Part shown: piece by piece, positions 17,634 through 33,703 of the stretch
Layout of the letters: every line of letters begins with the position of its first letter
Numbering within the stretch: position 1 is the first letter of the stretch
Source: an uncultured bacterium
GTDB lineage: Bacteria > Patescibacteriota > Minisyncoccia > Phycocordibacterales > GWA1-40-21
Length of the DNA: 64,000 bases
Direction: 5' to 3'
Assembly (NCBI GenBank): GCA_963804975.1
Contig: CAWDSG010000002.1
Location: 494,224-558,223 of the forward strand
Program-made: the position numbers and the translations under genes
The notes under the pieces: generated by a model
Told to the model about the DNA's origin: nothing
Databases searched by the model: none
What the model saw: only the letters and a program-made list of their open reading frames with translations

Positions 17634-17682
17634 AATATAATCTGTGAAATTGTACTATGAAATGCAACGATTCACAATACCA

Positions 17683-17710
17683 AAACCCCGAGGCGAGACC
17701 TCGGGATTTA
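17683..17710. repeat. GC-rich palindrome family unit (CCCGAGG-CGAGA-CCTCGGG)
   Basis: Intergenic hairpin with A-run and T-run flanks. Confidence 0.6.
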
Positions 17711-17724
17711 TTGCCGTTATGTTT

Positions 17725-18126
17725 TTATTTGGCCTTGGAGGAAGCCGAGGTTGCGGCTGCCGGCGCGATTGCGGTTTCCTGGCTACTAGTCGTGCCTAGC
17801 GGAGCAAGTTCAACAATCTTGTTCAGTTGCGGATCGTATAAAATAGCTTTTTGCGCCTTTGTATAAATAAGAACTTTGTCTCCTACTTTTGCATTGGCAA
17901 AAAACGGCTGATTTTTTAGCACCGAAAGATCCGTTACAACGGCAATAGTCGGCGTCTCATTCGTAGGGAGCACGATAAGTTTGCCTACCGTATTTACTGT
18001 GTCAGTAATTTCTTGTTGGGTCAAATTTGAGGAATTATTAATAAGATTGGAATGTAAAATCAAATAAGCATTCGCGCCAAGAGACAAAGCGAAAAGAATC
18101 CATGGAATTAATAACTTATACTTCAT
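17725..18126 (-). CDS. hypothetical secreted protein
   Basis: Signal peptide. No recognisable family. Confidence 0.45.
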   Translation of the reverse strand: MKYKLLIPWILFALSLGANAYLILHSNLINNSSNLTQQEITDTVNTVGKLIVLPTNETPTIAVVTDLSVLKNQPFFANAKVGDKVLIYTKAQKAILYDPQLNKIVELAPLGTTSSQETAIAPAAATSASSKAK

Positions 18127-18244: not shown

Positions 18245-21200
18245 TCAAGGCGTTGATGTTGCTGAATCCTGAACTGTAATAGCCGCGGGATTGCTTGTAA
18301 TCAAACCGCTTGAAGCGGTAATATTCGCCGTGCCTGCGCCAACCGGCGTGACTAAGCCGCTATCGTCAACCGTAGCGACCAAAACATTGTCCGATGCCCA
18401 AGTAAGAGTAGCTATTATAGAATCTCCATTTTGATCAAGAGTTTCTGCCGACAATTGCTGTGTGGTTGTTGCATCACCGACAGTCAAATTTGCCGTTGCC
18501 GGAGAAATGTTAATTGCAGTGAGAGTAGGCATTGGAGCTGAAACGGAAGCAACAGTGATGACCGAAGAATCGCTTGTAATCAAACCGCTTGAAGCGGTAA
18601 TATTCGCCGTGCCTGCGCCAACCGGCGTGACTAAGCCGCTATCGTCAACCGTAGCGACCAAAACATTGTCCGATGCCCAAGTAAGAGTAGCTATTATAGA
18701 ATCTCCATTTTGATCAAGAGTTTCTGCCGACAATTGCTGTGTGGTTGTTGCATCACCTATAGTCAAGCTGGCTGTCACTGGAGTGATATTAATGGTTGTC
18801 AGTGTTGAAGATGAATTGCCCGATGAACCGCTTCCCGATAAACCGCCTGATGGCGGGCTTGAAGATGCCGCCGGTAGCGTGTAATCCGAAGGATAGCCGA
18901 ATGTCTTCGCGTTCTTTATCGCAAATGCCGTCCAGCTGAAAGTTGTATTGTCAATCGCCGGCTTGTTCAAAATAATTGTAAAGCCAATTGTTGATTTGTT
19001 TGCGATAACATATCGGATATCGTTCGCAAAAATATCCCCGACAGCGGCGCTGTCTGCAGCAGGATTGTCGGATTTATTGAGAGAAATGGTCGCATTTACG
19101 ATCGGCTGTTCCAGATATGGATTGTCAAATTTCACATCAACCGACTCTTGGCCTTTGGCGATGACGGCAAATCCCGCCGTATCGGTATTGAAGTATGGTC
19201 TGCCGAAGAATATCGTGTCGTTCATAAAGCTGATTGCATCCGCAAGCGAGGAAACGCTGTCCACAATCAAGCCGTTGACTTTTATGCTCGGGGCGATTAT
19301 TTCAACGCCGGCGGTAATGCTATCTATTGTAAGAGTTGATGATGAAGCATTCAAGAATCTGGATAATGTATTATTTATTTCATTTATATTTGCTTCATCT
19401 GCCGAGGAACTTGCTTCAAGAGCTGTTGTTGAAGCAATAAAGTTATTATTTAAATCCTGTACACCTTTCAGGATAAGCGGAGTTAATTTGCCATAATCTA
19501 CAGACCAGGTATTTGTTGTGCCGAGAATATAAGGATCTGTACCGTTATCTCCGGCAGTAACAGCGTTTGGATAAATATTGTAAAGATCTTGGGCGATAAA
19601 GCCAGTATCCCCAGAACCATCTGAAATCCATTTGAAGTCCGCCACCTGAACTTTCATAAGATCGGCAAGCCCATAATGAGTTTCTGTTATGTCCGTTTTT
19701 AATCTTCTATCGGAACCTGTGACATACGAGATGGCAGAATTGGAACTATTTATAATAGCCCCAATTTCAGGGCCGCTGATACTTCCAAAACGAATGTAAC
19801 GAAGTCCATTGCCAGAAGCTGAATTTCGATCAATTATGATCCCCGCATCGGCTGTAGTTGATGATGCGGCAGTAGAGCTTGCAAGGATAAACAATGCGGC
19901 GCCGGCTGCTTTACTACTCGAATTCATAATTATAGCTAATCCAGTGCCTCCGGTACTAGAATTCGCGGTAATCTGGGTCGTTGTGCCAGTTGTCGCTAAA
20001 TCCGTAATCTGGAATCCGGTATTGGTATGGGCTGCGTTGAAGTTAAAGTAGACGAGGCCGTTTGTCGGAGCGCCAGTTGAACCTGTCTGCACCAGAAGAG
20101 CGGGACCTGTTTGGGAAGTGCCTGTCGTAAAGATCGCTTCACCCGAACCTGTTGTCAAACCGGTCGCATTGATGGTCAGAGCATTGCCTGTGGTAAGGGA
20201 GTTTGAGGTGATCTGGGTTGTGGTGGCAATCGTAGTTGAGATGTCGGTGATCTGGAAAGCGGCGCCACCAGCTGTTCTAGCTCCGTTGAAGTTGAAATAG
20301 ACGAGGCCGTTTGTAGGAGCGCTTGTTCCTCCGGTCTGGACCTTGAGTGAAGGGCCTGTCTGAGTGGTGTTTGTGGTGATTATTGAAAGTCCCGAGCCGG
20401 ATGTCAAAGCAGTTGCGTTGATGGTCATAGCAGTGCCTGTAGACATTGAGTTTGAAGTAATCTGGGTTGTGGTGCCGTTTGTGGAAAGATCAGTAATCTG
20501 GAATCCTGTATTTGATGTACCTGTATTGCGAGCGCTGTTGAAGTTAAAGTAGACGAGGCCGTTTGTCGGAGCGCCAGTTGAACCTGTCTGCACCAGAAGA
20601 GCGGGACCTGTTTGGGAAGTGCCTGTCGTAAAGATCGCTTCACCCGAACCTGTTGTCAAACCGGTCGCATTGATGGTCAGAGCATTGCCTGTGGTAAGGG
20701 AGTTTGAGGTGATCTGGGTTGTGGTGGCAATCGTAGTTGAGATGTCGGTGATCTGGAAAGCGGCGCCACCAGCTGTTCTAGCTCCGTTGAAGTTGAAATA
20801 GACGAGGCCGTTTGTAGGAGCGCTTGTTCCTCCGGTCTGGACCTTGAGTGAAGGGCCTGTCTGAGTGGTGTTTGTGGTGATTATTGAAAGTCCCGAGCCG
20901 GATGTCAAAGCAGTTGCGTTGATGGTCATAGCAGTGCCTGTAGACATTGAGTTTGAAGTAATCTGGGTTGTGGTGCCGTTTGTGGAAAGATCAGTAATCT
21001 GGAATCCTGTATTTGATGTACCTGTATTGCGAGCGCTGTTGAAGTTAAAGTAGACGAGGCCGTTTGTCGGAGCGCCAGTTGAACCTGTCTGCACCAGAAG
21101 AGCGGGACCTGTTTGGGAAGTGCCTGTCGTAAAGATCGCTTCACCCGAACCTGTTGTCAAACCGGTCGCATTGATGGTCAGAGCATTGCCTGTGGTAAGG

Positions 21201-24200
21201 GAGTTTGAGGTGATCTGGGTTGTGGTGGCAATCGTAGTTGAGATGTCGGTGATCTGGAAAGCGGCGCCACCAGCTGTTCTAGCTCCGTTGAAGTTGAAAT
21301 AGACGAGGCCGTTTGTCGGAGCTCCGGTTGAGCCGGTTTGGACTTGAAAGGCAGGACTGATAAGAGATGCGGATGTGCTAGCAACAGAAAGAATGCTGTT
21401 TGAAGTTGAAGTGCCAATGCCGACATTTCCGTTAAAGTAAGCGGCGTAGTTGCTGGCTGCTCCAGTCGGGGCAATAACTACCAATGAGTAGGCAATCGTT
21501 GTAGAAGCAGAAACAGTTCCGCCATTTACAAAGAGCGCAGTGCTTGTGCCGACATTTTTTATGCCTCCGCCTGAAGTGGTTGGCGCACCTGCAATGTATA
21601 CGCCAAACAGGTTAGTTTGAGTTGTGGAAGCATTGGTTGCCGCGATGGTTTGCTGACCGAAATAATTCCATGTCATGCCGGTGCCTGTTTTGCCTATTGA
21701 AGTGCTTGCATCGGTGAATGTGTACGCCTGTTCGTCGAAAAGAGCGCCCGCCGAGAGAGTGGTCGTACCTGATATTGTTTTGCCGAGTTCAAGAAGAGAG
21801 ACCGGTGTTGATGATCCGATGCCGACGTTGCCTCCCAACAGCCACGAATTTCCCGAAGCTGATATTTTATCCACATAAGCGGTTGTAACTGTAGGCACAG
21901 TGCCTGCAGTATAAACAGCCGGAGTTGATGTTGAAAGAACGAAGGTTGTAGTGGTGGTTGAAATGTAGACGTTTTCATTTCCTGCGCCGGTAGATGTGGC
22001 GAAATAAATCCTGTAGGAAGACGCTCCTGTTACAGAATATCCGGAAAGGGTGATTGAACCGGTAGTGCCTGTGGTTGTAGCTGTAACTTCTGTACTAGGC
22101 GTGGTAACTCCCACTCCGTCTGACGCGGAAATTTTGATGTAATAAACTCTAGCAGAGAGAGTGCCTCCTGTAGTTGACGAGGCGATTGTAGGTTTTGCCG
22201 GAGTGGACATATCTATAGAAATATTGTCTCCACCTGTAAGAGAAAGAGCGTTTTGCGGATTGGATGCGCCGATGCCGACATAACCTGCGTTGCTAACAGT
22301 GAATAATCTTGCCAATGACGATGAAGAAATTGTGAAGAGGTTTGCTTTTTGCAAAGTGCTTGTGCCGTAGACATCAAGAAAAGCGGCTGGCGAAGAGGTA
22401 TTGATTCCTAAGACGCCGGCGATTGAAATACCGGCCGTAAAGTTAAATAACCCATTTATATTTGTTAAGTAGATTGTCGGCTGCTGATTGGCCGGAGTGA
22501 GATATCGGATTATAATGACACCGCTGCCGCCGGAGCCGCCTGTCCCGCCATGCGAGCCGCCTCCTCCACCTCCAGTATTTGCGGTTCCATCTGATCCGTT
22601 ACTCGAGCCGTCTATCGCTCCATCCCCTCCACCGCCAGCGCCGCCAGTGCCGTATACAGTTCCTTGAGTAGAAGCGGTTCCGCCACCTCCCCCTCCGTAA
22701 TAAGCAGTGTACCCAGTGATACCGCTTGAGGTGCCAACTCCGCCATTTCCCGACTGATAAGATGTATAAGTACCACCTACGTCTCCCGCTCCTCCTCCTC
22801 CTCCAGTTTCATAAGGGTCAACTGCGCCAGCACCGTCTCCGCCGTCATAACCTTGGCCGGCAGTTCCGGCTCCTCCGGTAGGACACGAGTAACCTCCGCC
22901 GCCGCCTGATCCTCCATCGCCGGTTGTGCCTTCATAAGTGCAACCATGGCCTCCGCCGGAAGCTGTAAGGTCGTCAAAGGAAGAATCGTCGCCGTTTACG
23001 GCTGGTTCTCCGCCATCACCCACTGTTACAGTATAGGCAGTGCTTGTTGCCAAAGTTATACTTGAAGAAGCTACGGCTCCTCCGGCTCCTCCGCCTCCTC
23101 CTGGAGCTCCTCCGCCTCCTCCGCCTCCTCCGCCTGCGACAATCAAAACACTGTAGTCAGTGGTTGATGCCGGAGTGGTAAAAGTTCCGGATGATGTGAA
23201 CGTGCGGATAGTATAGGCGCCGTCGACCGTAACCGTTCCGCCAAGTCCGGCAGTAGTCGTTCCAAAAGTGATCGCTTGTGTTATATTTGCCGTTCCCGTT
23301 ATCAAAGTGTCTGAAATATTGGCTTCCGTTGAATTAGAAGTGGTTGAATTGATTGTCAAAGCGTTCAAATTTTGAGCACTTATGTCATCGCTTGAAATGA
23401 CGTTTCCCAAAACATTCAGATCGTTTGCTATATATGATGTGGATGTTCCGACTGTCTGGGTCGGATTAATCGCACCGGACAAATATAAAAGATCCAAATC
23501 CACCATAGAAACCAAGTCGGTAGTTCCGTTGCCGCCAATCATGTATCCGGATGGAGAAGAACCGGCTGGACGATACCACTTTATTCCGTTCATGCTTAAG
23601 GTTTTTATTTCCGCATCATTTTTTATAAGCGGCTGGCCTGAATTATTCACAGTAATATTGTCCATCTGCAATGAATCAATGGTCACGCCGCTTTCAATAT
23701 TAAACCAGGGTACATTCGCGCCGTTATACGCCCAGCGACTGTTTGAAATTTGCAGATTGCCGATATGAACCAATCCCGATCCTATATGGTAAGCCTGAAT
23801 CGGCTGGCCATATGTCATGCTGATATTTTCAAGAAGAACATCGTCTATTATTCCGCCTGTATAGGTAGGCGCATCCCAAGCATTCCAAAAACCGATAGTC
23901 CAATATACTGTTGTACCGTGAACATTTTTTATAGTCAGGTGCTTGATGTTGTTAGCCCCCGACAAAACAGAGATGCCATATTCGGAACCCATAAATTCAA
24001 TCCCATCGATTAAAACATCGGTAATGTCTCCCGAGTTAATAATCCAAGGAGTAGCGGAGCAATCCTGCAAGCCGTTCACTGCATCTGTGCTGTTTAAGTC
24101 AATAAGCTGGGCGCCAACCGCTCCTTTGATGTTTTTTAAGACCAAGTGAGAATTCGGACCGGTAAAATGGATGCCGTCATTGTTGGTGGACAAGCCCATA

Positions 24201-27200: not shown

Positions 27201-30200
27201 GTCGCTATCACATTTCCATTCATATCAACCGCAAGGAATGAATTTGAAAGATTTGAAATGTTCAGATTTTGAGTCGTTATTGTTCCCACCACATACAAAA
27301 CTGTGGCAGGCGTAGTCGTCCCAATCCCCACCTTTCCCCCATCTTTTACCGCAAATACTGTGGTTGTATTATCAACCAAATCCAATAAATCTCCTGTTCC
27401 TTTTCCTGTCACATTTAACACTGCTCCTGTTGCAGTAGCGAATCCCTGCGTTATGGAGAGAACATTTGCAGAATGAGCAATAGTTCCTCCTGTTTGTGTC
27501 ATCGTATCATTTATATCAACTACCGAACCTGTAACTGTAAGAGTTTGGCCAGCATTGTTATAATCGTAGCTTCTTGAAAAACTTGCTATATTTCCTGCCA
27601 TTGCATATGAGTTTGCTGTAAGATTTGTCGCTCCCGAAACATTTAATAATTTTCCCGATAATGCTGTCTGGCGAGAAGTCGCTCCTGTTTGAGATATAGA
27701 TAAACCAGTGCCAGAAGTCATTGCCGAACTAGGAGTAACAGTCATAATTGTTCCTGTATAATTTGTGGAAGGGCTAGATTGCACGGAAAGAGCCGTGAGA
27801 GTGTTTGATGTAGCTCCAACAACACTAAGTTGTTCAGTTGGGTTTGTTTGATTTATTCCTACGTAACCTGATGGAGCTATATACAAAGCTGAAGTTCCGC
27901 TTGAAGAAGCGAAATTTGCAATGGCGGGAGTGAAACTTGTGCCGTCTACCATTGTGGTCGTGCCGACAACAGACAAAGAAGCGCTTGGCGTGGAGCTTCC
28001 AATTCCCACCGTTCCGTTGCCAGAAACAACCATAAGAGCATTGGCAGAGGACAAAACATTTCCATTAACCTCTTTGGCTGAAATTACCAAAGTCGGATAT
28101 GTGGTGGAAGCAGATACTGGTTGTATATTGAGAGCTATTTGGTTCGCTTGGCTGTTCGCGGTTGAAACTGCATAAGCTAATCCTGAAAATGTAAGCAAAT
28201 CAGATGATTGGATTCTGTTTCCCGCTGTAGCCGCAGTTGTGTTTGTAATTAAGACAGCATTGCCAGAAGTTGTCGTTCCAATACCATTCATTGTATCGGT
28301 AATGGTGTTTGAAAAACCTCCTGTTGTCGCTCCCGTAAGAGCGCCTGTCATCGTCAAAGTTCCTCCCTGACTAAGCGTTAATCTGGTGGCATAAGCAGAA
28401 TTATTGGAGGAAGAATTAAACATAAGTTGAGGATTTGCAACTGTCGCTTGTTGAGGCACGCTTGTTATTTGCCATTCAGCTGGCTGTGAAGTGGACGCTG
28501 TCGTTCCCCAACCGTAGGATTTGAACCATATTGAAGGGCTGTATTGCTGGCTTCCTGAAGCTGCAGCTGTGTTGTTTATCAAAGACAAACCTGATGTGGT
28601 GGCAGCGGTTGCTCCAATATTTTCAGTATCCAATTCAAGCAATGACGCGGGAGAAGTCGTCCCAATCCCCACATTCCTCGTCGCATAATCATAATAAATC
28701 CCAGAATCGGTCAAAGCACCGCTTGATGTGGCGTATTGAATATATCCAGTTGTGAAAGGAGAGGTGGAAGCCAAGAAAGACAGGGTGTTTGAAAGATATG
28801 GGAGAGAGGTGGAAGCTGAAAGAGGAAGGAAAGTTGAAGTCACCCAGCTCGTGGAAGCAAAAGTGCTTGAAGCGTATGCGAATGTCGGATAGTTGGATGT
28901 CAGATATGAAGTTGATGCAAAAGTTCCAAGGACCCAGGAAGTGGAAGCGAAAGTTGATGAAGCGTAAGTAAACGTCGGGAAGTTTGTTGTTACAAAACTG
29001 GTAGAAGCGTAAGTGGAAGAAGCCATGGCAGAAGAGATAAACTGGGAGGTGGAGTTGTCGGCGGTGGAAAGATCCTGGCCGGAGATGTTTGAAATGTAGT
29101 TATTCGTATTTGACCATGCAAGCGGAGAGCCGACGGTTCCAATACCCGATAGAGTCCCTCCTGAGGTTACGACGCCTGTGAGATAACTCATCCCTGTCCA
29201 TGGAGTGCCTGTGACAAACTGGGATGTGGTGGTAGAGATGACATTACCTGAAGTATCAACCGCAATAAAACTGTTTGTAAGATTTGAAATGTTTAGTCCT
29301 TGTGTTGTGGAAGTACCAATGACCGAAAGCGCTGCGTTTGGAGTGGTAGTACCGATGCCCACAGTTCCGCTAAATGTTGATGTGGCAAACGTTGATGTCC
29401 CCAAGACCGTAAAATTGTGAGTTCCTAAATCCACATCCGCGGTCGCTCCTGAATATGGGACAAAATTTGTTGCATCAACCGTGTTTGAAGGAAGAGCAAT
29501 ATGCGAATCGGCTTCGTCTCCGTAATAAAGATCTACTGTCGGAGAAAATGGACCTGGTCCAGAAATTGTTGCATAAACCTTTGTCACTATTCTCGAAGAA
29601 GTTGAGGCCATAATATATGTGCTTGATGTTGCGAAGTACAAGCGATATTCAACTTCTGAAGTCCCAATGGCTGGTGTTACTTCTGATGTGCCGATTCTGG
29701 CTATATTCGCTCCGCTTGAATTGGCTTCCCAAATCTCTGCGTACAACGTGACAGTCTTGCCGTTTGCTACAGGTCTTGCAGCATGAATATGGAATTCATA
29801 TTGTCCTGCGGGAATAAAAGTAAGATTTGGAAAACCCGGATCTGTAATCCAGTTTTGCACAACATCGGTTCCAACCGGAAGAGTGGTGGTTGATAAAGTT
29901 GTTTTTGGAGTATAAGGAGTTGGAAGTTGTTTTTTGTATCCAGTTACATTTGATGCTGTATTTTGAAAATAATAGGTTAGGGTGCCTTGTGCCGGCAAAG
30001 TTTGCCAACTTGGCGCTGCGGAATTCACTCCATCTCCTGTCTGAGCGAGAAACTTTTGGACAGTTGTTGTGTTGCCGGAAAGAACTGTTGCCGCTCCTGA
30101 ATCTCCGCCATAAATGATATCTCCAAGAGTGGTCATTGGCTGATACGAAGAAGAAGCATATTCAAATGTCGGGAAGTTTGTTGTTACAAAACTTGTCGAT

Positions 30201-33200
30201 GCAAATGTGGATGATGCGTATGAGAATGTCGGATAGTTTCCTGTGAGGTATGAGGTGGAAGCGTAAGTGGAGGAGGCATAAGCGAAGGTTGGATAGTTGG
30301 ATGTCAGATATGAAGTCGAGGCGAATGTACCGAGGACCCAGGATGTTGATGCGAATGTGGAAGAGGCATATGCAAAGCTCGGATATGTTGAAGTCAGTGT
30401 CGTGGTGGAAACATAATCTGCTCCGAGAGCGGTGATTGTTTCAAAAGTGTTTGTCACCCATGAAGTGGAAGCGAAGGTTCCAAGGACCCATGTGGTCGAA
30501 GCGTATGTCGATGAAGCGGTGGCGGAAGAGAGAAACTGCGAAGTGGAATTGTCCGCGGTGGAAAGATCCTGGCCGGAGATGTTTGAAATGTAGTTATTCG
30601 TATTTGACCATGCAAGCGGAGAGCCGACGGTTCCAATGCCTGAGAGAGTCCCTCCCGAAGTTACGACGCCTGTGAGATAACTCATCCCTGTCCATGGAGT
30701 GCCTGTGACAAACTCTGATGTGGTGGTGGAAGTGATGTTTCCGTTTTGATCAACTGCAAGGAATGAGCTTGTAAGATTGTTGCCCAAAGTGACTTGAGAG
30801 ATAGTGGTTGAGGCCATGATGTTGGTGCCGTTTGCCGTGAAGCTTTGAGTCCCAAGATTGACTGCTCCTGTCGCACCGGTGTAAGGGACATAGGTTGCGG
30901 TGACAAAGGAAGTTGATGCGAAGGTGGAAGAGGCGTACGCAAATGTCGGGAAGTTTGTTGTTACAAAACTTGTGGAAGCGAATGTACCGAGGACCCAGGA
31001 TGTTGATGCGAATGTCGAAAGAACCCATGAAGTGGAAGCAAAAGTTCCAACTATCCACGAGGTGGAAGCAAAAGTAGAGGAAGCGTATGCGAATGTCGGG
31101 AAGTTATTCACAACAAATGAAGTTGAGGCGAAGGTGGAGGAAGCGTAGCTGAATGAAACATACGTCGATGTTGCATTCGCAATCTTCAAATAAGTGGATG
31201 AAGCTGTGGTAGTGGAAAGCAAAGCGTTCAAAGCGGTTTCCAAATCTCCTTGATCTGAAAGTGGTCCTGTAATAGCGCCCCATGCCACGGTAGCGCTGCC
31301 GCTTGAAGCAAATGCCCATTCAAAACCGGTTGATGAAGTTGAAGAAGCCTTTAAAAATGTTCCGGGTGTTCCCGTCTCAAGTGAAGCGATTGTCGTTGAT
31401 GAAGTCCAATACGCAAGAGTGTTTGTAGCGCCTCCGCTCAAACTCGCTCCGCTTGTAGGAGTTGTCGTTGAAATAATGTTTCCGTTTGCATCAACTGCAA
31501 GAAAAGAATTGCTTAGACCATTATCAAGCGAAAGAGATGTGATTGAAGTAGTGGCAAGAGTGGAAGTGCCGGAAACGGTGAAAGAGTTTGCTCCGAGATT
31601 CACATTTGCATTTGCTCCGGTGTAAGGAACGTATGTGGCTGTGACGAATGATGTCGAAGCGAAAGTGGAAGAAGCGTATGAGAATGTCGGAAAGTTATTC
31701 ACTACGAATGAAGTGGAAGCAAAGGTTGATGAAGCGTATGAGAATGTCGGATAATTGGATGTGAGAGTTGTAGTAGAAACATAATCAGACGAGAGAATGG
31801 AGGTGAAAGTGGAAGTGGAAATGTAATCTGTTCCAAGCGAAAGGATAGTGGCAAAAGTGTTTGTCACCCAGCTCGTGGAAGCGAAAGTTCCGATGACCCA
31901 TGAGGTGGAGGCGTAAGTGCTTGATGCGTATGAAAAATTTGGAAAATTATTTACAACGAAGCTTGTCGACGCGAATGTCGATGAAGCGTATGCGAATGTT
32001 GGAAATGTGGAAGTGATCCAGGAAGTGGAGGCAAAAGTAGAGGAAGCATAAGCAAAACTTGGAAATGTCGAATTAATCCAGGAAGTGGAGGCGAATGTTC
32101 CGAGAACCCACGATGTCGACGCGAATGTGCTTGAAGCATAAGCAAATGTCGGAAAATTATTTGTTACAAAACTTGTGGAGGCAAATGTGGAAGAGGCGTA
32201 TGCATAGTTTGGATAGTTTGCGGTGACCCACGAAGTGGAAGCGAATGTTGAGTAAACCCACGATGTCGAAGCGAACGTGCTTGAGGCGTAATCAAATGTC
32301 GGGAAATTATTCACTACGAATGATGTGGAAGCGTAAGTGGAAGAAGCGTATGAGAAGCTTGGATATGTTGATGTCAGGGTTGTCGTGGAAACATAATCTG
32401 CGGCAGCGGATGTCGTGGAAAGTTTTTCATTCAGAGCGGTTTGCAAATCACCTTGGCTTGAAAGTGTTCCGGTAATAAAACCCCAGACCCCACTTCCACC
32501 GCTCGACGAAGCCAGTGCCCAATCAAAACCTGTCGGTGATGTAGACGATGACCTTAAAAATGTTCCCGCAGTTCCTGTTGCAAGACCTGTGATTTCCGAA
32601 GTGCCGCTGAATATCGCAAGCTGATTAACTAACCCCGTTCCTGTAACCGGATTTGTTAAAGCTTTTTGAAATGTATCATTTACCCACGATGTCGAAGCGA
32701 ATGTGCTTGAAGCATAAGCAAATGTCGGGAAATTATTCACTACGAATGATGTGGAAGCGTAAGTGGAAGAAGCGTATGAGAAGCTTGGATATGTTGATGT
32801 CAGGGTTGTCGTGGAAACATAATCTGCGGCAGCGGATGTCGTGGAAAGTTTTTCATTGAATATATTCCAATCAGCACTTGATAAGGCGCCCGTTCCTGTG
32901 CTTGAAGCTAAACCGAGCGAAAGAGTTTGTCCTGCTAAATAAAGACCGTTCCCGGTGCCTATTGCCACATCGCCGCTGTTTGTACCAGTTGAAGTTCCGG
33001 AAATATTTGAAGCTGAAATTGCGCCCGTAAATGATGCGTTTATTCCGCTCAAAAGTCCGCTTGAGGCAACAGAAAATAAATTCGCTCCGGAAGAATTTTG
33101 AATTTGAAAAAGATTTGCGACTTGTCCTACAAATCCACCAATTGTGAGCGCCGTGGAATTCGTAGATGTGGAAAGAATACTGACAACCGAATTTGCAATC

Positions 33201-33703
33201 GGCGTCGTGGTGCCGAATGAAGATTGCCCTGTTCCGGAAACTGCACTTGAAAGCTGTGAGAATGCCGAAGCGGTTATGAGCTCGCGCGGAGAAAGAGTTT
33301 CAAAATATATATTGTCGGACGAAACTTCAATTTGAAGATAAACTGTATTGTTTGTGTTGAAATTATAATTCAGCGCATCCGGATATCCATTTGCGGTATC
33401 TCCGATATTCACATTGAAAACTCCCTGTCTGACCGTTGTTGAAGCAGAATTTGGAGAGAGTGCCGGCCAAAGTTTATTGCCAGTCGTAGTGCTTACATTA
33501 TCCCAGAGAGAAAATTTAAAATAATAGATCGTCCCGCTGCCGCCCAAAAGATTTCCGCTTGAATCATACAATCTGCCTTGGAAGCCCAGGATTGCCGGCG
33601 TACCGGATGCCGCGTAAGAAAAATTAAATGCTAAGGAGAATAACGATACTATTATTAATAGCTTCGCCAGGACTTTTTTACTTAAAAAATGTTTTATATA
33701 CAT
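18245..33703 (-). CDS. giant (5152 aa) repetitive surface protein with tail-fibre-like repeats, a pectate-lyase-like beta-helix, a poly-Gly module, a peptidase-S74-like chaperone segment and two C-terminal Big_2 domains
   Basis: Single ORF with a signal peptide. Carries many …NVGIGTTTP…L.V.G and YASSTFASTSW/F repeats, the TDDTAVLQSAIDT…beta-helix, GGGGGGGGGAPGGGGG…VIIIRY, SDRRLKTDITETHYGLADLMK and two TLTAINISPATANLTVGD… Big_2 repeats. Confidence 0.8.
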   Translation of the reverse strand: MYIKHFLSKKVLAKLLIIVSLFSLAFNFSYAASGTPAILGFQGRLYDSSGNLLGGSGTIYYFKFSLWDNVSTTTGNKLWPALSPNSASTTVRQGVFNVNIGDTANGYPDALNYNFNTNNTVYLQIEVSSDNIYFETLSPRELITASAFSQLSSAVSGTGQSSFGTTTPIANSVVSILSTSTNSTALTIGGFVGQVANLFQIQNSSGANLFSVASSGLLSGINASFTGAISASNISGTSTGTNSGDVAIGTGNGLYLAGQTLSLGLASSTGTGALSSADWNIFNEKLSTTSAAADYVSTTTLTSTYPSFSYASSTYASTSFVVNNFPTFAYASSTFASTSWVNDTFQKALTNPVTGTGLVNQLAIFSGTSEITGLATGTAGTFLRSSSTSPTGFDWALASSSGGSGVWGFITGTLSSQGDLQTALNEKLSTTSAAADYVSTTTLTSTYPSFSYASSTYASTSFVVNNFPTFDYASSTFASTSWVYSTFASTSWVTANYPNYAYASSTFASTSFVTNNFPTFAYASSTFASTSWVLGTFASTSWINSTFPSFAYASSTFASTSWITSTFPTFAYASSTFASTSFVVNNFPNFSYASSTYASTSWVIGTFASTSWVTNTFATILSLGTDYISTSTFTSILSSDYVSTTTLTSNYPTFSYASSTFASTSFVVNNFPTFSYASSTFASTSFVTATYVPYTGANANVNLGANSFTVSGTSTLATTSITSLSLDNGLSNSFLAVDANGNIISTTTPTSGASLSGGATNTLAYWTSSTTIASLETGTPGTFLKASSTSSTGFEWAFASSGSATVAWGAITGPLSDQGDLETALNALLSTTTASSTYLKIANATSTYVSFSYASSTFASTSFVVNNFPTFAYASSTFASTSWIVGTFASTSWVLSTFASTSWVLGTFASTSFVTTNFPTFAYASSTFASTSFVTATYVPYTGATGAVNLGTQSFTANGTNIMASTTISQVTLGNNLTSSFLAVDQNGNITSTTTSEFVTGTPWTGMSYLTGVVTSGGTLSGIGTVGSPLAWSNTNNYISNISGQDLSTADNSTSQFLSSATASSTYASTTWVLGTFASTSWVTNTFETITALGADYVSTTTLTSTYPSFAYASSTFASTSWVLGTFASTSYLTSNYPTFAYASSTYASTSYLTGNYPTFSYASSTFASTSFVTTNFPTFEYASSSYQPMTTLGDIIYGGDSGAATVLSGNTTTVQKFLAQTGDGVNSAAPSWQTLPAQGTLTYYFQNTASNVTGYKKQLPTPYTPKTTLSTTTLPVGTDVVQNWITDPGFPNLTFIPAGQYEFHIHAARPVANGKTVTLYAEIWEANSSGANIARIGTSEVTPAIGTSEVEYRLYFATSSTYIMASTSSRIVTKVYATISGPGPFSPTVDLYYGDEADSHIALPSNTVDATNFVPYSGATADVDLGTHNFTVLGTSTFATSTFSGTVGIGTTTPNAALSVIGTSTTQGLNISNLTNSFIAVDTSGNVISTTTSQFVTGTPWTGMSYLTGVVTSGGTLSGIGTVGSPLAWSNTNNYISNISGQDLSTADNSTSQFISSAMASSTYASTSFVTTNFPTFTYASSTFASTSWVLGTFASTSYLTSNYPTFAYASSTFASTSWVTSTFLPLSASTSLPYLSNTLSFLASTSPFTTGYIQYATSSGALTDSGIYYDYATRNVGIGTTSPASLLELDTENIGATAATTSGLSLINNTAAASGSQQYSPSIWFKSYGWGTTASTSQPAEWQITSVPQQATVANPQLMFNSSSNNSAYATRLTLSQGGTLTMTGALTGATTGGFSNTITDTMNGIGTTTSGNAVLITNTTAATAGNRIQSSDLLTFSGLAYAVSTANSQANQIALNIQPVSASTTYPTLVISAKEVNGNVLSSANALMVVSGNGTVGIGSSTPSASLSVVGTTTMVDGTSFTPAIANFASSSGTSALYIAPSGYVGINQTNPTEQLSVVGATSNTLTALSVQSSPSTNYTGTIMTVTPSSAMTSGTGLSISQTGATSRQTALSGKLLNVSGATNLTANSYAMAGNIASFSRSYDYNNAGQTLTVTGSVVDINDTMTQTGGTIAHSANVLSITQGFATATGAVLNVTGKGTGDLLDLVDNTTTVFAVKDGGKVGIGTTTPATVLYVVGTITTQNLNISNLSNSFLAVDMNGNVIATSTADLFTNYVNYNYASSTFASTSFVVNNFPTFAYASSTFASTSWIVGTFASTSWVTSTFETIASLGADYVSTTTLTANYPTFAYASSTFASTSFVTATYVPYSYASSTFASTSWIVGTFASTSWVTNTFATIANYPTYTYASSTFASTSFVTTNFPTFAYASSTFASTSFVTATYVPYTGATGAVNLGTQSFTANGTNIMASTTISQVTLGNNLTSSFLAVDQNGNITSTTTSEFVTGTPWTGMSYLTGVVTSGGTLSGIGTVGSPLAWSNTNNYISNISGQDLSTADNSTSQFLSSATASSTYASTTWVLGTFASTSWITSTFPSFAYASSTFASTSFVVNNFPSYAYASSTFASTSWVTNTFETITALGADYVSTTTLTSTYPSFAYASSTFASTSWVLGTFASTSYLTSNYPTFTYASSTFASTSWVLGTFASTSFVTTNFPTFAYASSTFASTSFVTATYVPYTGATGAVNLGTQSFTANGTNIMASTTISQVTLGNNLTSSFLAVDQNGNITSTTTSEFVTGTPWTGMSYLTGVVTSGGTLSGIGTVGSPLAWSNTNNYISNISGQDLSTADNSTSQFLSSATASSTYASTTWVLGTFASTSWITSTFPSFAYASSTFASTSFVVNNFPSYAYASSTFASTSFVTATYVPYTGATTNVNLGANTFTVSGTSTLATTSITQLTLGNGLASTFLAVDPNGKIISTTTPTGSSQWTTNASSIYYSGNVGIGTTSPLAKFEVYGTAGNNAIANFASSTNSSVLYIAASGFVGIGTTTPATALYVIGTSTIQNLNISNLSNAFLAVDSSGNVITTTTPSGSSASSSLSANVIYASTLSGIHSDSNLTSGGGTDDTAVLQSAIDTLASEGGGELILDKVFLVGSLHVPSDITIRGLGWNTGLYRADHTDAPIIRNENPSTTTAQDTNIQLINFQVSLNGINQDATPIESEGDCWVNGVAFYGVSDVTLDTIRVYNADQPNIELPIMFTNTSYVTVENTEVYMGLSTNNDGIHFTGPNSHLVLKNIKGAVGAQLIDLNSTDAVNGLQDCSATPWIINSGDITDVLIDGIEFMGSEYGISVLSGANNIKHLTIKNVHGTTVYWTIGFWNAWDAPTYTGGIIDDVLLENISMTYGQPIQAYHIGSGLVHIGNLQISNSRWAYNGANVPWFNIESGVTIDSLQMDNITVNNSGQPLIKNDAEIKTLSMNGIKWYRPAGSSPSGYMIGGNGTTDLVSMVDLDLLYLSGAINPTQTVGTSTSYIANDLNVLGNVISSDDISAQNLNALTINSTTSNSTEANISDTLITGTANITQAITFGTTTAGLGGTVTVDGAYTIRTFTSSGTFTTPASTTDYSVLIVAGGGGGGGGGAPGGGGGAGGAVASSSITLATSTAYTVTVGDGGEPAVNGDDSSFDDLTASGGGHGCTYEGTTGDGGSGGGGGYSCPTGGAGTAGQGYDGGDGAGAVDPYETGGGGGAGDVGGTYTSYQSGNGGVGTSSGITGYTAYYGGGGGGTASTQGTVYGTGGAGGGGDGAIDGSSNGSDGTANTGGGGGGSHGGTGGSGGSGVIIIRYLTPANQQPTIYLTNINGLFNFTAGISIAGVLGINTSSPAAFLDVYGTSTLQKANLFTISSSSLARLFTVSNAGYVGIGASNPQNALSLTGGDNISIDMSTPAKPTIASSTTGGTLSARVYYIKISASDGVGVTTPSTEVTATTTGTTGSITLSGYSVTGASSYRIYFATSTGAGNENVYISTTTTTFVLSTSTPAVYTAGTVPTVTTAYVDKISASGNSWLLGGNVGIGSSTPVSLLELGKTISGTTTLSAGALFDEQAYTFTDASTSIGKTGTGMTWNYFGQQTIAATNASTTQTNLFGVYIAGAPTTSGGGIKNVGTSTALFVNGGTVSASTTIAYSLVVIAPTGAASNYAAYFNGNVGIGTSTSNSILSVASTSASLISPAFQVQTGSTGAPTNGLVYFNFNGARTAGGAAFQITDISTTIATTTQITSNSLTTGNALTINATGLTTGSGEAIFTTGTSQTGPALLVQTGSTGAPTNGLVYFNFNSARNTGTSNTGFQITDLSTNGTTTQITSNSMSTGTAMTINATALTSGSGLSIITTNTTQTGPSLKVQTGGTSAPTNGLVYFNFNGARTAGGAAFQITDISTTIATTTQITSNSLTTGNALTINATGLTTGSGEAIFTTGTSQTGPALLVQTGSTGAPTNGLVYFNFNSARNTGTSNTGFQITDLSTNGTTTQITSNSMSTGTAMTINATALTSGSGLSIITTNTTQTGPSLKVQTGGTSAPTNGLVYFNFNGARTAGGAAFQITDISTTIATTTQITSNSLTTGNALTINATGLTTGSGEAIFTTGTSQTGPALLVQTGSTGAPTNGLVYFNFNAAHTNTGFQITDLATTGTTTQITANSSTGGTGLAIIMNSSSKAAGAALFILASSTAASSTTADAGIIIDRNSASGNGLRYIRFGSISGPEIGAIINSSNSAISYVTGSDRRLKTDITETHYGLADLMKVQVADFKWISDGSGDTGFIAQDLYNIYPNAVTAGDNGTDPYILGTTNTWSVDYGKLTPLILKGVQDLNNNFIASTTALEASSSADEANINEINNTLSRFLNASSSTLTIDSITAGVEIIAPSIKVNGLIVDSVSSLADAISFMNDTIFFGRPYFNTDTAGFAVIAKGQESVDVKFDNPYLEQPIVNATISLNKSDNPAADSAAVGDIFANDIRYVIANKSTIGFTIILNKPAIDNTTFSWTAFAIKNAKTFGYPSDYTLPAASSSPPSGGLSGSGSSGNSSSTLTTINITPVTASLTIGDATTTQQLSAETLDQNGDSIIATLTWASDNVLVATVDDSGLVTPVGAGTANITASSGLITSDSSVITVASVSAPMPTLTAINISPATANLTVGDATTTQQLSAETLDQNGDSIIATLTWASDNVLVATVDDSGLVTPVGAGTANITASSGLITSNPAAITVQDSATSTP
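18288..18790. repeat. two tandem 279-bp repeats, each encoding a C-terminal Big_2 Ig-like domain
   Basis: Near-identical DNA copies starting at 18294 and 18573. Confidence 0.7.
19970..21360. repeat. intragenic tandem repeat, 501-bp period, about 2.7 copies, 100% identical
   Basis: Identical sub-ORFs at 20118/20619/21120 and at 20364/20865. Encodes 167-aa units (…TNGLVYFNFN…) with an internal ~83-aa sub-period. Confidence 0.85.
25250..26760. repeat. intragenic tandem repeat, 867-bp period, about 1.75 identical copies
   Basis: Identical sub-ORFs at 25312/26179, 25384/26251 and 25600/26467. Confidence 0.85.
30290..30990. repeat. dispersed third copy of the 867-bp repeat unit, with an internal deletion
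   Basis: The sub-ORF 30682-30942 is identical to 25600-25860. Confidence 0.7.

What the first reader, a model, noticed from the sequence alone, without database searches (positions are those of the whole stretch)
18245..33703. 5152-aa surface protein with a phage tailspike/depolymerase-like domain order
One ORF encodes, in order, a signal peptide and hundreds of residues of tail-fibre-like motifs (NVGIGTTTP…L.V.G and degenerate YASSTFASTSW/F repeats of ~19 aa). A right-handed beta-helix segment of pectate-lyase/tailspike type follows (TDDTAVLQSAIDTLASEGGGELIL…). Next come a poly-glycine module and a segment matching the peptidase-S74 intramolecular-chaperone motif of phage tail spikes and endosialidases (SDRRLKTDITETHYGLADLMKVQVADFKW). 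This chaperone-like motif is internal rather than C-terminal. The protein ends with two Big_2 Ig domains. The combination looks like a host-surface polysaccharide-degrading or adhesion appendage built from phage tail-fibre parts.
Basis: partly seen in the sequence, partly recalled or inferred. Interest (0 to 1): 0.6.

Follow-up and report, generated by a model that had tools for sequence, protein, structure and literature searches.

The report
Giant phage-fibre-like adhesin of a Patescibacterium
A tiny, probably host-dependent bacterium encodes a 5,152-residue secreted fibre built like a phage tail fibre, and the closest characterised relatives are the fibres that the predator Bdellovibrio uses to recognise prey, so this is a plausible host-attachment device but not a new kind of protein.

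Summary
Window 18245..33703 (-) is one 5,152-codon ORF in a cellular Patescibacteria genome, not a prophage.

Tools confirm these parts:
- a signal peptide;
- a decapeptide-repeat shaft;
- VGIGTTxP...L motifs;
- a right-handed beta-helix;
- a Gly_rich_2 domain;
- an internal Peptidase_S74 chaperone with an intact Ser4664/Lys4669 dyad;
- two Big_2 domains.

1. The beta-helix is a distant GH28/tailspike relative, but the family's acid pair is missing. That pair is Asp in 118 and 126 of 129 homologues and reads Ala3198-Gln3199 here. It is probably a binding module, not a depolymerase.
2. An H-type-lectin-like domain lies between S74 and the Ig domains. The layout S74, then this domain, then an Ig domain recurs in syntenic orthologues. 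A second protein in the window also has an internal S74 followed by Ig domains.
3. The closest characterised system is the Bdellovibrio mosaic adhesive trimer (MAT) fibre family.

Best reading: a secreted trimeric surface fibre, folded from its C-terminal chaperone and self-cleaved at Ser4664, used for adhesion to a host cell. Trimerisation, cleavage and adhesion are inferred. It is a new variant of a known kind. Exact length is uncertain because of near-identical internal repeats.

The parts
18245..33703 (-). Whole ORF, 5,152 aa plus stop codon
   Evidence: identical to library protein P0244
33611..33703 (-). Signal peptide, aa 1-31 (MYIKHFLSKK / hydrophobic core / NFSYA|AS)
   Evidence: Read from the sequence. 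It is the only TM-like segment. Homologues keep an AxA|A site just before the conserved domain. No signal-peptide predictor was available.
32954..33610 (-). Conserved N-terminal domain, aa 32-~250 (GTPAILGFQGRLYDSSGNLL...); presumed cell-proximal base of the fibre
   Evidence: It is 55-70% identical to more than 200 Paceibacterota/Parcubacteria proteins, most of them 330-370 aa. It is 62% identical in the syntenic orthologue L003. The anchoring role is inferred by analogy with the MAT N-domain.
24734..32953 (-). Shaft, aa 251-2990. It holds decapeptide repeats (YASSTFASTSW type), YVPYTGA..V.LG / FLAVD.NGN modules and VGIGTTxP...L motifs, and is interrupted by unique segments at aa 1188-1416 and ~1690-2110.
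   Evidence: The unique segments have no Pfam or PDB match. aa 2102-2142 match the Bdellovibrio MAT structure 8OJN weakly, E 0.031.
23264..24733 (-). Right-handed parallel beta-helix, GH28/tailspike-like, aa 2991-3480
   Evidence: Homologues at E down to 2.5e-88. 10 of 30 homologues hit PF00295. AF2 pLDDT 81. Foldseek matches 2UVE/3JUR/5OLP, AlgE4, HK620 and Sf6 tailspikes and the PfbA adhesin.
24107..24112 (-). Ala3198-Gln3199, at the position of the family's Asp-Asp pair (the GH28 'GDD' motif)
   Evidence: These columns are D in 118/129 and 126/129 homologues. Asp3176 of the NxDG motif is kept. Ser3245 replaces an Arg present in 106/129.
22502..23197 (-). Gly_rich_2 (PF21722) domain, aa 3503-3734
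   Evidence: E 7e-21. Together with the helix it matches phrog_2295 at E 8e-53. The same helix + Gly_rich_2 + S74 cassette occurs in P0245. It is 64% identical to the copy in ORF 59097..63905.
21407..22501 (-). Linker region, aa 3735-4099, with two VGIG..P...L motifs and a segment that looks FN3-like by eye only
   Evidence: no family or PDB match
19784..21406 (-). About 6.5 tandem copies of an 83-84-aa repeat, aa 4100-4640; presumed beta-helical stalk leading into S74
   Evidence: phrog_1980 'tail fiber protein' covers aa 4408-4774. It is about 60% identical in L002/L003.
19304..19714 (-). Peptidase_S74 intramolecular chaperone, aa 4664-~4800. Catalytic Ser4664 is at 19712..19714 and Lys4669 at 19697..19699. 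The predicted cleavage is N-terminal to Ser4664.
   Evidence: Pfam. S, D, R, L and K are invariant in the alignments. The profile hits 8JOV, 6F45, MYRF 7DC3 and GA-1 3GUD; the 3GUD chain begins at the aligned SDERHK. Cleavage itself is inferred.
18839..19291 (-). Conserved post-S74 beta-sandwich, aa ~4805-4955, H-type-lectin-like (tentative)
18248..18805 (-). Two Big_2 Ig-like domains, aa 4967-5059 and 5060-5152
   Evidence: The two DNA copies are about 90-92% identical. The orthologues carry PF16403 here instead.

Best explanation
This is a Sec-secreted, probably homotrimeric cell-surface fibre of a small-genome Patescibacterium. It has the same plan as phage tail fibres and the Bdellovibrio MAT adhesins.

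Proposed mechanism:
1. The signal peptide is removed.
2. The conserved N-terminal domain (aa 32-~250) docks the fibre on a conserved element of the cell's own envelope.
3. Three chains are registered and folded from the C-terminal side by the S74 intramolecular chaperone.
4. The Ser4664/Lys4669 dyad then cuts the chain just before Ser4664.

Cleavage would separate a fibre of about 4,630 residues from a C-terminal fragment of 489 residues. That fragment holds the chaperone, the H-type-lectin-like domain and two Big_2 domains.

The fibre carries a long decapeptide-repeat shaft and several candidate ligand-binding modules. One is a GH28/tailspike-type beta-helix that has lost its catalytic acid pair, so it most likely binds a glycan rather than cleaving it. 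Another is a Gly_rich_2 domain.

The likely role is long-range adhesion to the surface glycans of a host bacterium.

Shown: the ORF, the domain identities, the retained dyad, the lost Asp pair, the conservation and synteny, and the cellular context. Inferred: trimerisation, cleavage, N-terminal anchoring and host adhesion.
For: ORF and domains.

Cellular, non-prophage context:
- LepA, ClpB, IF-2, GlmS, RNR and 9 dispersed tRNAs.
- The source contig is 606,401 bp.
- Relatives are all Patescibacteria.

S74:
- Scores above the Pfam cutoff, and the SDxRLK residues are invariant.
- The family profile hits the self-cleaving phage and MYRF structures.
- The released GA-1 chaperone chain starts at the aligned Ser.

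MAT link:
- A family profile hits Bdellovibrio MAT structures: 8OND at 5.8e-16, plus 8OML, 8OJN, 8ON4 and 8OL4.
- The MAT paper describes the same plan: signal peptide, a conserved N-domain of about 130 aa proposed to bind the cell's own surface, a trimeric beta-helix with capping loops, and an SDxxxK S74 domain with proven self-cleavage.

N-domain: 55-70% identical in more than 200 Paceibacterota proteins.

Beta-helix:
- Fold and GH28/tailspike kinship.
- Lost DD and Arg.
- A beta-helix acting purely as an adhesin has a precedent among the fold matches, PfbA.

Architecture conserved beyond this gene:
- Syntenic orthologues L002/L003 keep S74, the post-S74 domain and an Ig domain.
- A second protein in the window has enzyme domains, then Gly_rich_2, S74, Big_2 and Big_3.

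Giant surface proteins and a fibrous layer between epibiont and host of about 100 nm are reported for another CPR bacterium.
Against: - No experiment or trimer model was possible. The monomer AF2 model of the S74 part had low confidence.
- Homology of the N-domain to the Bdellovibrio MAT N-domain could not be tested.
- The window's own VGIG region matches a MAT structure only at E 0.031. The strong PDB hits came from a profile built from relatives.
- No covalent anchor was seen. There is no TM-like segment apart from the N-terminal signal peptide, and Pfam found no dockerin or cohesin domain. No sortase motif was noticed by eye in the C-terminal sequence; no motif search was run. The fibre could therefore be shed.
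- The closest beta-helix subfamily already varies at the first Asp (S/A-D), so a non-canonical activity cannot be excluded.
- If the C-terminal fragment is simply discarded, its conservation is not explained.
- Whether this organism is an epibiont is itself inferred from its phylum and contig size.
Confidence: 0.55

Rival explanations
1. It is an active depolymerase appendage. The beta-helix cleaves a host capsule, cell-wall or exopolysaccharide, as phage tailspikes do, so that the cell can reach or feed on its host.
For: GH28/tailspike fold and homology. A phage homologue sits in a tail-gene position. The other S74 protein in the window carries GDSL-lipase and GH43-like domains, so enzymes on such fibres do exist in this genome. 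Asp3176 is retained.
Against: Ala3198-Gln3199 replace an Asp-Asp pair conserved in 118 and 126 of 129 homologues. Ser3245 replaces a conserved Arg. No Pfam GH28 signal appears even at E 10.
Confidence: 0.15
2. Reversed polarity, with S74 acting as a release switch as in MYRF. The C-terminal lectin-like and Ig module holds the protein on the cell's own wall. S74 cleavage then releases the 4,630-residue fibre, or the freed lectin-Ig trimer acts as a separate glycan-binding product or as a transient cap.
For: The C-terminal extension after S74 is rare: 4 of 84 homologues have more than 200 aa. Yet it is conserved in orthologues, and a second protein in the window also has Ig domains after an internal S74. 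The post-S74 domain also occurs in Parcubacteria proteins that lack S74. H-type lectins are oligomeric glycan binders (established knowledge; fold match). MYRF uses an internal S74 to release one part from an anchored part (7DC3 match; mechanism from established knowledge). Transient chaperone 'caps' have been proposed for phage fibres.
Against: The strongly conserved N-domain immediately after the signal peptide fits the cell-proximal role proposed for MATs. Nothing shows that the lectin-like domain binds the cell's own wall. In phage systems the cleaved chaperone dissociates (established knowledge).
Confidence: 0.2
3. It is a tail fibre of a prophage, tailocin or contractile injection system that happens to lie in the chromosome.
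For: PHROG tail-fibre hits. S74 is typical of phage fibres. An IS110-type transposase lies about 10 kb away.
Against: No phage structural, integrase or injection-system genes are in the 64-kb window; the neighbours are housekeeping genes. The gene has a Sec signal peptide, which virion proteins lack (established knowledge). The locus is syntenic in two other Patescibacteria genomes, together with envelope-type neighbours.
Confidence: 0.04
4. It is an assembly artefact. Repeat-mediated mis-joins have inflated or chimerised a shorter gene.
For: Internal repeats reach 644 bp at 99.5% identity. The orthologue in L003 is only about 2,900 aa and lacks the helix/Gly-rich cassette.
Against: 15.4 kb stays in frame. 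The N-terminal and C-terminal modules lie in one gene in L003 as well. The unique modules are each flanked in frame by shaft motifs. The Gly-rich copy in the other gene is only 64% identical, too divergent for a mis-join.
Confidence: 0.08

Closest known systems
Bdellovibrio bacteriovorus MAT (mosaic adhesive trimer) fibres, S74 subgroup, e.g. Bd3182 (Caulton et al. 2024, PMC10769870)
   Same: A cellular rather than viral protein. Signal peptide followed by a conserved N-terminal domain. A long fibre with VG.G..P...L loop motifs. An S74 domain with an SDxxxK dyad. Modular adhesive domains. It is made by a bacterium that must attach to other bacteria. A family profile hits five MAT crystal structures.
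   Different: About 5 times longer than the ~1,000 aa typical of MATs. A monoderm-type Patescibacterium rather than a Gram-negative predator. S74 is internal and followed by a lectin-like domain and Ig domains. It contains a GH28-like helix and a Gly_rich_2 domain. It has a decapeptide-repeat shaft. Homology of the N-domain was not tested.
Phage tailspikes and tail fibres with a C-terminal intramolecular chaperone (K1F endosialidase, T5 pb1, S16 gp37, GA-1 gp12)
   Same: S74 chaperone with a Ser-Lys dyad. A beta-helix of tailspike type. A C-terminal beta-sandwich resembling the distal domains of tailspikes and pyocin fibres.
   Different: Encoded in a chromosome with a signal peptide and no virion genes. 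The chaperone is not terminal. The beta-helix lacks the acid pair.
GH28 exopolygalacturonases (2UVE, 3JUR, 5OLP)
   Same: Right-handed beta-helix fold, with the N-terminal cap motif GGGTDDT..LQ.A and the NxDG motif.
   Different: No Pfam PF00295 match. The DD pair and a conserved Arg are replaced.
MYRF (myelin regulatory factor) ICA domain
   Same: An S74-type domain inside the protein, with further domains after it (7DC3 match).
   Different: A eukaryotic membrane-bound transcription factor. The flanking domains are unrelated.
'Tail fiber domain-containing proteins' of Bacteroidota, Verrucomicrobiota and Gracilibacteria (e.g. P0072, P0073, P0111)
   Same: VGIGTT.P motifs and a closely similar S74 domain, 40-50% identical.
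   Different: These are 300-630 aa with S74 at the very end (median tail 120 aa) and different N-termini.

Membership tests
Peptidase_S74 / intramolecular chaperone auto-processing domain | Profile match above the curated threshold | tested here: met
   PF13884: 45.8 bits against a cutoff of 22, aa 4664-4716
Peptidase_S74 / intramolecular chaperone auto-processing domain | Catalytic Ser-Lys dyad in an SDxxxK motif | tested here: met
   S4664 and K4669 are invariant in the 17- and 11-sequence alignments. They align to SDERLK (8JOV), SDRRIK (6F45) and SDERHK at residue 1 of 3GUD.
Peptidase_S74 / intramolecular chaperone auto-processing domain | Domain forms the extreme C-terminus and is the only part released | tested here: not met
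   489 aa lie from the Ser to the end, against a median of 120 aa. Only 4 of 84 homologues exceed 200 aa.
Peptidase_S74 / intramolecular chaperone auto-processing domain | Trimer-dependent autoproteolysis actually occurs | not testable with these tools
   Needs expression of the wild type and an S4664A mutant
MAT superfamily (Bdellovibrio) | Signal peptide followed by a conserved N-terminal domain | tested here: inconclusive
   A signal-peptide-like N-terminus and a domain conserved at 55-70% in more than 200 Paceibacterota proteins are present. Homology to the Bdellovibrio N-domain could not be tested, because no sequence or structure of it was available in the tools.
MAT superfamily (Bdellovibrio) | Beta-helical fibre with VG.G..P...L capping-loop motifs related to the solved MAT tips | tested here: inconclusive
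   There are 8 matches to the motif pattern, and 9 VGIG strings in all. A family profile hits 8OND at 5.8e-16 and four other MAT entries. The window sequence alone reaches only E 0.031 to 8OJN.
MAT superfamily (Bdellovibrio) | S74 or another adhesive domain at the distal end | tested here: met
   S74 plus lectin-like and Ig-like domains
MAT superfamily (Bdellovibrio) | Intertwined homotrimer on the cell surface | not testable with these tools
   No multimer prediction or experiment was available
Glycoside hydrolase family 28 | Right-handed parallel beta-helix fold | tested here: met
   AF2 pLDDT 81. Foldseek best hits are 2UVE, 5OLP and 3JUR at E 2e-9 to 1e-8.
Glycoside hydrolase family 28 | Family profile match | tested here: not met
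   No PF00295 hit at E up to 10. 10 of 30 homologues do hit it.
Glycoside hydrolase family 28 | Catalytic carboxylates (NxD plus the DD pair) | tested here: not met
   D3176 is kept. A3198-Q3199 stand in place of DD, which is conserved in 118/129 and 126/129 homologues.
Gly_rich_2 (PF21722) | Profile match above threshold | tested here: met
   75.7 bits against a cutoff of 24.3, covering profile positions 1-225 of 226
Big_2 (PF02368) | Profile match above threshold, two copies | tested here: met
   46.5 bits against a cutoff of 22.8, two stretches. PDB Ig-domain matches.
H-type lectin | Fold and profile match | tested here: inconclusive
Prophage / tailocin / contractile-injection tail fibre | Adjacent virion or injection-machinery genes | tested here: not met
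   The neighbours are housekeeping and envelope genes. The locus is syntenic in two other genomes.

The most novel reading that the evidence does not exclude
The internal S74 domain is a programmed switch that turns one giant precursor into two working products. One is a fibre about 0.3 micrometres long carrying a dead glycosidase as a glycan reader. The other is a trimeric chaperone-lectin-Ig module, which acts as a cap, a sensor or a temporary wall tether. On this reading, the N-domain family seen across Paceibacterota marks a phylum-wide, MAT-like host-recognition system of Patescibacteria. This would be the first molecular handle on how these unculturable epibionts choose hosts.
Probability: 0.2. 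Interest if true: 0.75.

Novelty: new variant of a known kind. Interest (0 to 1): 0.55.

Why it matters
How Patescibacteria (CPR) recognise and hold on to their hosts is largely unknown, apart from type IV pili.

A fibre family with a shared, highly conserved base domain and swappable distal modules would give concrete candidates for host-range determinants. These could be tested by binding assays and used to predict hosts from genomes. The family parallels the Bdellovibrio MAT adhesins and phage receptor-binding proteins.

The dead GH28-like helix is an example of an enzyme fold reused as a probable binding module. The internal S74 followed by lectin and Ig domains is an unusual use of a well-known autoprocessing chaperone.

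If none of this holds functionally, the gene is still an ordinary member of the widespread 'tail fiber domain-containing' surface proteins, only very long.

Tried and rejected
Searches that found nothing useful:
- Pfam, NCBIfam and PHROGs on the first 3,000 aa gave nothing significant.
- Pfam at E 10 gave nothing real for the N-domain, the unique segments at aa 1188-1416 and 1690-2110, the beta-helix or the post-S74 domain.
- PDB sequence searches of aa 1180-1420 and 3720-4120 found nothing meaningful. The Gly-rich segment matched only a linker artefact.
- tblastn of aa 3001-3740 against 50,697 GenBank phages found no match. Homologues appeared only with profile methods and in IMG/VR contigs.
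- No paper mentions PF21722/Gly_rich_2. No paper was found that links Patescibacteria with S74 fibres.

Look-ups limited by the tools:
- An exact look-up of the ClpB neighbour failed. Its own genome is not among the GTDB representatives scanned.
- The giant protein exceeds the 5,000-residue limit stated for the exact-contig look-up, so no look-up was attempted and no independent assembly could be checked.

Structure prediction:
- The monomer AF2 model of the S74 part was unreliable, with pLDDT below 50.

Interpretations considered and rejected:
- Prophage or tailocin fibre: rejected on context.
- Pectate lyase: the nearest relatives are GH28, and lyases did not rank at the top.
- S-layer or sortase-anchored protein: the domain searches found no SLH domain and no dockerin. 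No LPXTG motif was noticed by eye in the C-terminal sequence; no motif search was run.
Full report
**1. Observation**

Window 18245..33703 on the minus strand is a single ORF of 5,152 codons.
- The protein is 17% Thr, 15% Ser, 10% Ala and 10% Gly.
- An identical 5,152-aa protein is present in the public representative library as P0244.
- Other proteins of the window are on record from one 606,401-bp contig.

The gene has long internal DNA repeats: 644 bp at 99.5%, 562 bp at 99.1% and 892 bp at 96% identity. The number of repeat modules, and hence the exact length, is less certain than the domain order. An open frame of 15.4 kb is not a chance event.

**2. Context**

The window is cellular DNA.
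- It has nine dispersed tRNA genes.
- It encodes LepA, ClpB, IF-2, GlmS, a ribonucleotide reductase, an aminoacyl-tRNA synthetase, RNase J and TsaD.
- No phage structural gene was found.

Relatives of the C-terminal part come from Patescibacteria MAGs, apart from one weaker Bacteroidales hit. Relatives of the N-terminal part are named Paceibacterota, Parcubacteria, Wolfebacteria, Vogelbacteria and Niyogibacteria. The organism is therefore most likely a Paceibacterota-type Patescibacterium with a genome of about 0.6 Mb or somewhat more. Its name was not recovered.

**3. Anatomy, N to C** (coordinates checked)

(a) aa 1-31, signal peptide.
- It has a basic start, a hydrophobic core and NFSYA|AS.
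- It is the only TM-like segment in the protein.
- Homologues keep an AxA|A site directly before the conserved GTP.I..YQGRL.

(b) aa 32-~250, N-terminal domain.
- It is 55-70% identical to more than 200 proteins, nearly all named from Paceibacterota or Parcubacteria lineages.
- Most of these are only 330-370 aa and end in a small Cys-containing tip.

(c) aa 251-2990, shaft.
- 48 ASTS[WFY] motifs are spaced 10 or 20 residues apart.
- Recurrent YVPYTGA..V.LG / FLAVD.NGN modules and VGIGTTxP...L motifs are present.
- Two unique inserts, aa 1188-1416 and ~1690-2110, match nothing.

(d) aa 2991-3480, right-handed beta-helix (section 4).

(e) aa 3503-3734, Gly_rich_2, E 7e-21.

(f) aa 3735-4099, linker with two more VGIG motifs.

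(g) aa 4100-4640, about 6.5 copies of an 83-84-aa repeat.

(h) aa 4664-~4800, Peptidase_S74 (section 5).

(i) aa ~4805-4955, conserved beta-sandwich (section 6).

(j) aa 4967-5152, two Big_2 domains.

**4. The beta-helix**

Pfam does not see it, even at E 10. A weak PDB sequence match covers only the N-terminal cap, shared with a GH28 exopolygalacturonase (3JUR, E 0.03).

Homologues settle the fold.
- The word-indexed search found five 27-31% identical proteins at E 1e-19 to 1e-29. Two of them carry PF00295.
- The exhaustive search found 338 hits, 140 below 1e-10.
- 10 of 30 top homologues match GH28. Others carry Mtd_N, Phage_depo_C, S74 or Gly_rich_2.
- An AlphaFold2 model built on this alignment is confident (mean pLDDT 81, pTM 0.85) and nearly all beta.
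- Its best PDB fold matches are GH28 exopolygalacturonases (2UVE, 5OLP, 3JUR; E 2e-9 to 1e-8). Next come AlgE4 epimerase, the HK620 and Sf6 tailspikes and the pneumococcal beta-helix adhesin PfbA.
- Viral contigs encode homologues. In L012 a 780-aa protein with a closely similar N-terminal cap follows tape-measure-like and distal-tail-like genes.

The tailspike/depolymerase-like fold is therefore real, but it is GH28-type rather than pectate-lyase-type.

The active site is not intact.
- In an alignment of 129 homologous domains, the two columns of the GH28 'GDD' motif are Asp in 118 and 126 sequences. The window protein has Ala3198-Gln3199.
- A following Arg, present in 106 of 129, is Ser3245.
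- The NxDG Asp (D3176) is kept.
- The nearest subfamily often has Ser/Ala-Asp. Only one other aligned sequence (P0252, Ser-Asn) lacks both Asp, as the window protein does.

By the established GH28 mechanism, which uses three carboxylates, canonical hydrolysis is unlikely. I read the domain as a glycan-binding pseudoenzyme. This is an inference.

**5. S74**

- The Pfam match is well above threshold.
- In alignments with orthologues and diverse 'tail fiber domain-containing' proteins, Ser4664, Asp4665, Arg4667, Leu4668 and Lys4669 are invariant.
- A profile of the S74 region hits five solved structures. They are a phage tail fibre (8JOV, 1.5e-14), the S16 long tail fibre (6F45, 7.9e-14), MYRF (7DC3, 8.8e-10), the GA-1 neck appendage chaperone (3GUD) and the T5-like L-shaped fibre (8HQZ).
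- The 3GUD chain begins at the aligned SDERHK. That fits cleavage immediately before the Ser.

The domain is internal. 489 residues run from the Ser to the end, against a median of 120 in 84 homologues, of which only 4 exceed 200.

**6. What follows S74**

Residues ~4805-4955 are a separate, well-conserved domain.
- It is also found in Parcubacteria proteins that lack S74. One of these is named 'H-type lectin domain-containing' by NCBI.
- AF2 models it confidently, at pLDDT 80-96, although the rest of that model is poor.
- Foldseek gives only weak matches (E 0.08-0.3): the Sf6 tailspike, the R2 pyocin fibre and discoidin II.
- Pfam H_lectin appears in only 1 of 11 homologues, at E 0.02.

I call it H-type-lectin-like, tentatively.

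**7. Conservation of the plan**

Two other Patescibacteria genomes (L002, L003) have syntenic loci.
- The fibre gene is followed by the same neighbours. These are a Beta-lactamase2-like protein, a 133-aa membrane-anchored protein, a Big_6+dockerin protein and paralogous proteins related to a cohesin+Big_13 protein.
- The L003 orthologue spans about 8.7 kb and is read as three overlapping frames. It shares the N-domain (62% identity over aa 5-287) and aa 4100-4940 (about 60%).
- It has S74 with the dyad, the post-S74 domain and a different C-terminal Ig domain (PF16403).
- It lacks the helix/Gly-rich cassette.

That cassette is mobile. P0245 has LVIVD repeats, then the helix, Gly_rich_2 and S74. 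phrog_2295 covers the helix plus the Gly-rich part at E 8e-53.

In the same window, ORF 59097..63905 (1,602 aa) reads GDSL lipase, GH43-like, Gly_rich_2 (64% identical to the giant's), S74 (SDEILK), Big_2 and Big_3. An internal S74 followed by Ig domains therefore recurs in this organism. The fuller layout of S74, the post-S74 domain and an Ig domain recurs in the syntenic orthologues. Neither is an accident of one gene.

**8. Closest known system**

A profile that included upstream parts of S74 relatives hit five crystal structures of Bdellovibrio 'cell wall surface anchor family' proteins: 8OND/bd2133 at 5.8e-16, plus 8OML, 8OJN, 8ON4 and 8OL4. These are the mosaic adhesive trimer (MAT) fibres.

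According to Caulton et al. 2024 (PMC10769870):
- MATs are proteins of about 1,000 aa with a signal peptide and an invariant beta-rich N-domain of about 130 aa. That domain is proposed to bind a surface element of the predator itself.
- They form an intertwined trimeric beta-helix with VG.G..P...L capping loops.
- They end either in an S74 domain with SDxxxK or in other adhesive tips. Self-cleavage was shown for Bd3182 and abolished by S782A.
- They sit on the predator surface, and one binds prey glycans.

The window protein shares this plan. Two links remain unproven. The window's own VGIG segment matches 8OJN only at E 0.031. The N-domains could not be compared.

**9. Mechanism proposed**

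Steps: Sec export; signal-peptide removal; C-terminal registration and folding of three chains by S74; cleavage before Ser4664. This would yield a mature fibre of aa 32-4663, held to the cell by the conserved N-domain and presenting binding modules along and at the end of a very long shaft.

Scaling from the ~550 A model of Bd3182, which self-cleaves at S782, gives a rough length of 0.3 micrometres. This is my extrapolation. Giant surface proteins and a fibrous layer of about 100 nm between cells are described for the CPR epibiont Vampirococcus.

The fate of the 489-aa chaperone-lectin-Ig fragment is the main open point. Its conservation argues that it does more than fold the fibre. Possible roles are a transient cap, a temporary tether or a separate lectin. 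A cap-like role has been suggested for phage fibre chaperones.

**10. Verdict**

The protein is a new variant of a known kind, the S74/MAT-type tail-fibre-like adhesins.

It is notable for its size and its host lineage. It also has a degenerate GH28-like module and an unusual internal S74 followed by lectin-like and Ig domains. The depolymerase idea is weakened. The adhesion idea is strengthened by analogy but remains untested.

Noticed in passing
window 59097..63905 (-): A second protein with an internal S74 domain, 1,602 aa. Its order is GDSL lipase, GH43-like, Gly_rich_2 (64% identical to the giant's), Peptidase_S74 (SDEILK), Big_2, Big_3. The ORF begins MGIGTTTP with no signal peptide, so its true start may be wrong or disrupted.
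   Followed up: partly
window 56673..59087 (-): An 804-aa protein with three Bact_surface_Ig-like (PF16403) domains and HYR, directly downstream of the second S74 protein. PF16403 is the Ig type that replaces Big_2 at the end of the giant's orthologues in L002/L003.
   Followed up: no
window 11410..18126 (-); L002 and L003: A gene cluster next to the giant gene is conserved and syntenic in two other Patescibacteria. It holds a 133-aa membrane-anchored ORF, a Beta-lactamase2-like protein (weak D-Ala-D-Ala carboxypeptidase signal in the L003 orthologue) and a Big_6+dockerin protein. It also holds three mutually related ORFs (509, 296 and 388 aa) similar to a cohesin+Big_13 protein of L003. This may be a cohesin-dockerin surface scaffold in a CPR bacterium.
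   Followed up: partly
proteins P0126, P0133, P0142, P0186 and more than 200 others: A widespread Paceibacterota family of proteins of about 340 aa has the giant's N-terminal domain at 55-70% identity. Many, including the four read, have one VGxGT motif, and all four end in a Cys-containing tip (NENLWVCSGGSCG...FDEGQ). They look like 'mini-fibres' on the same base.
   Followed up: partly
L012 5635..7977 (IMGVR_UViG_3300017988_000041): A viral contig encodes a 780-aa protein immediately after tape-measure-like and distal-tail-like genes. It has a closely similar beta-helix N-cap (VVYASKLSGIHANSNVNTGGGTDDTATLQ) and an intact NDD motif, so it is a phage tailspike relative of the giant's helix.
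   Followed up: partly
L003 2691..11407: The orthologous fibre gene in this MAG reads as three overlapping ORFs in different frames. This could be sequencing frameshifts or a real pseudogene; the two were not distinguished.
   Followed up: no
window 7220..8332 (-): An IS110/IS116/IS902-family transposase lies among tRNA genes, about 10 kb from the giant gene.
   Followed up: no
proteins P0023, P0025, P0029, P0035: Parcubacteria proteins carry the post-S74 lectin-like domain after a different conserved module (…GRVPVKV.ENG.I..GD.LT.S..PGVAMKATKAG…) instead of S74. P0035 also starts with the end of a Gly-rich domain. The identity of this alternative module is unknown.
   Followed up: no
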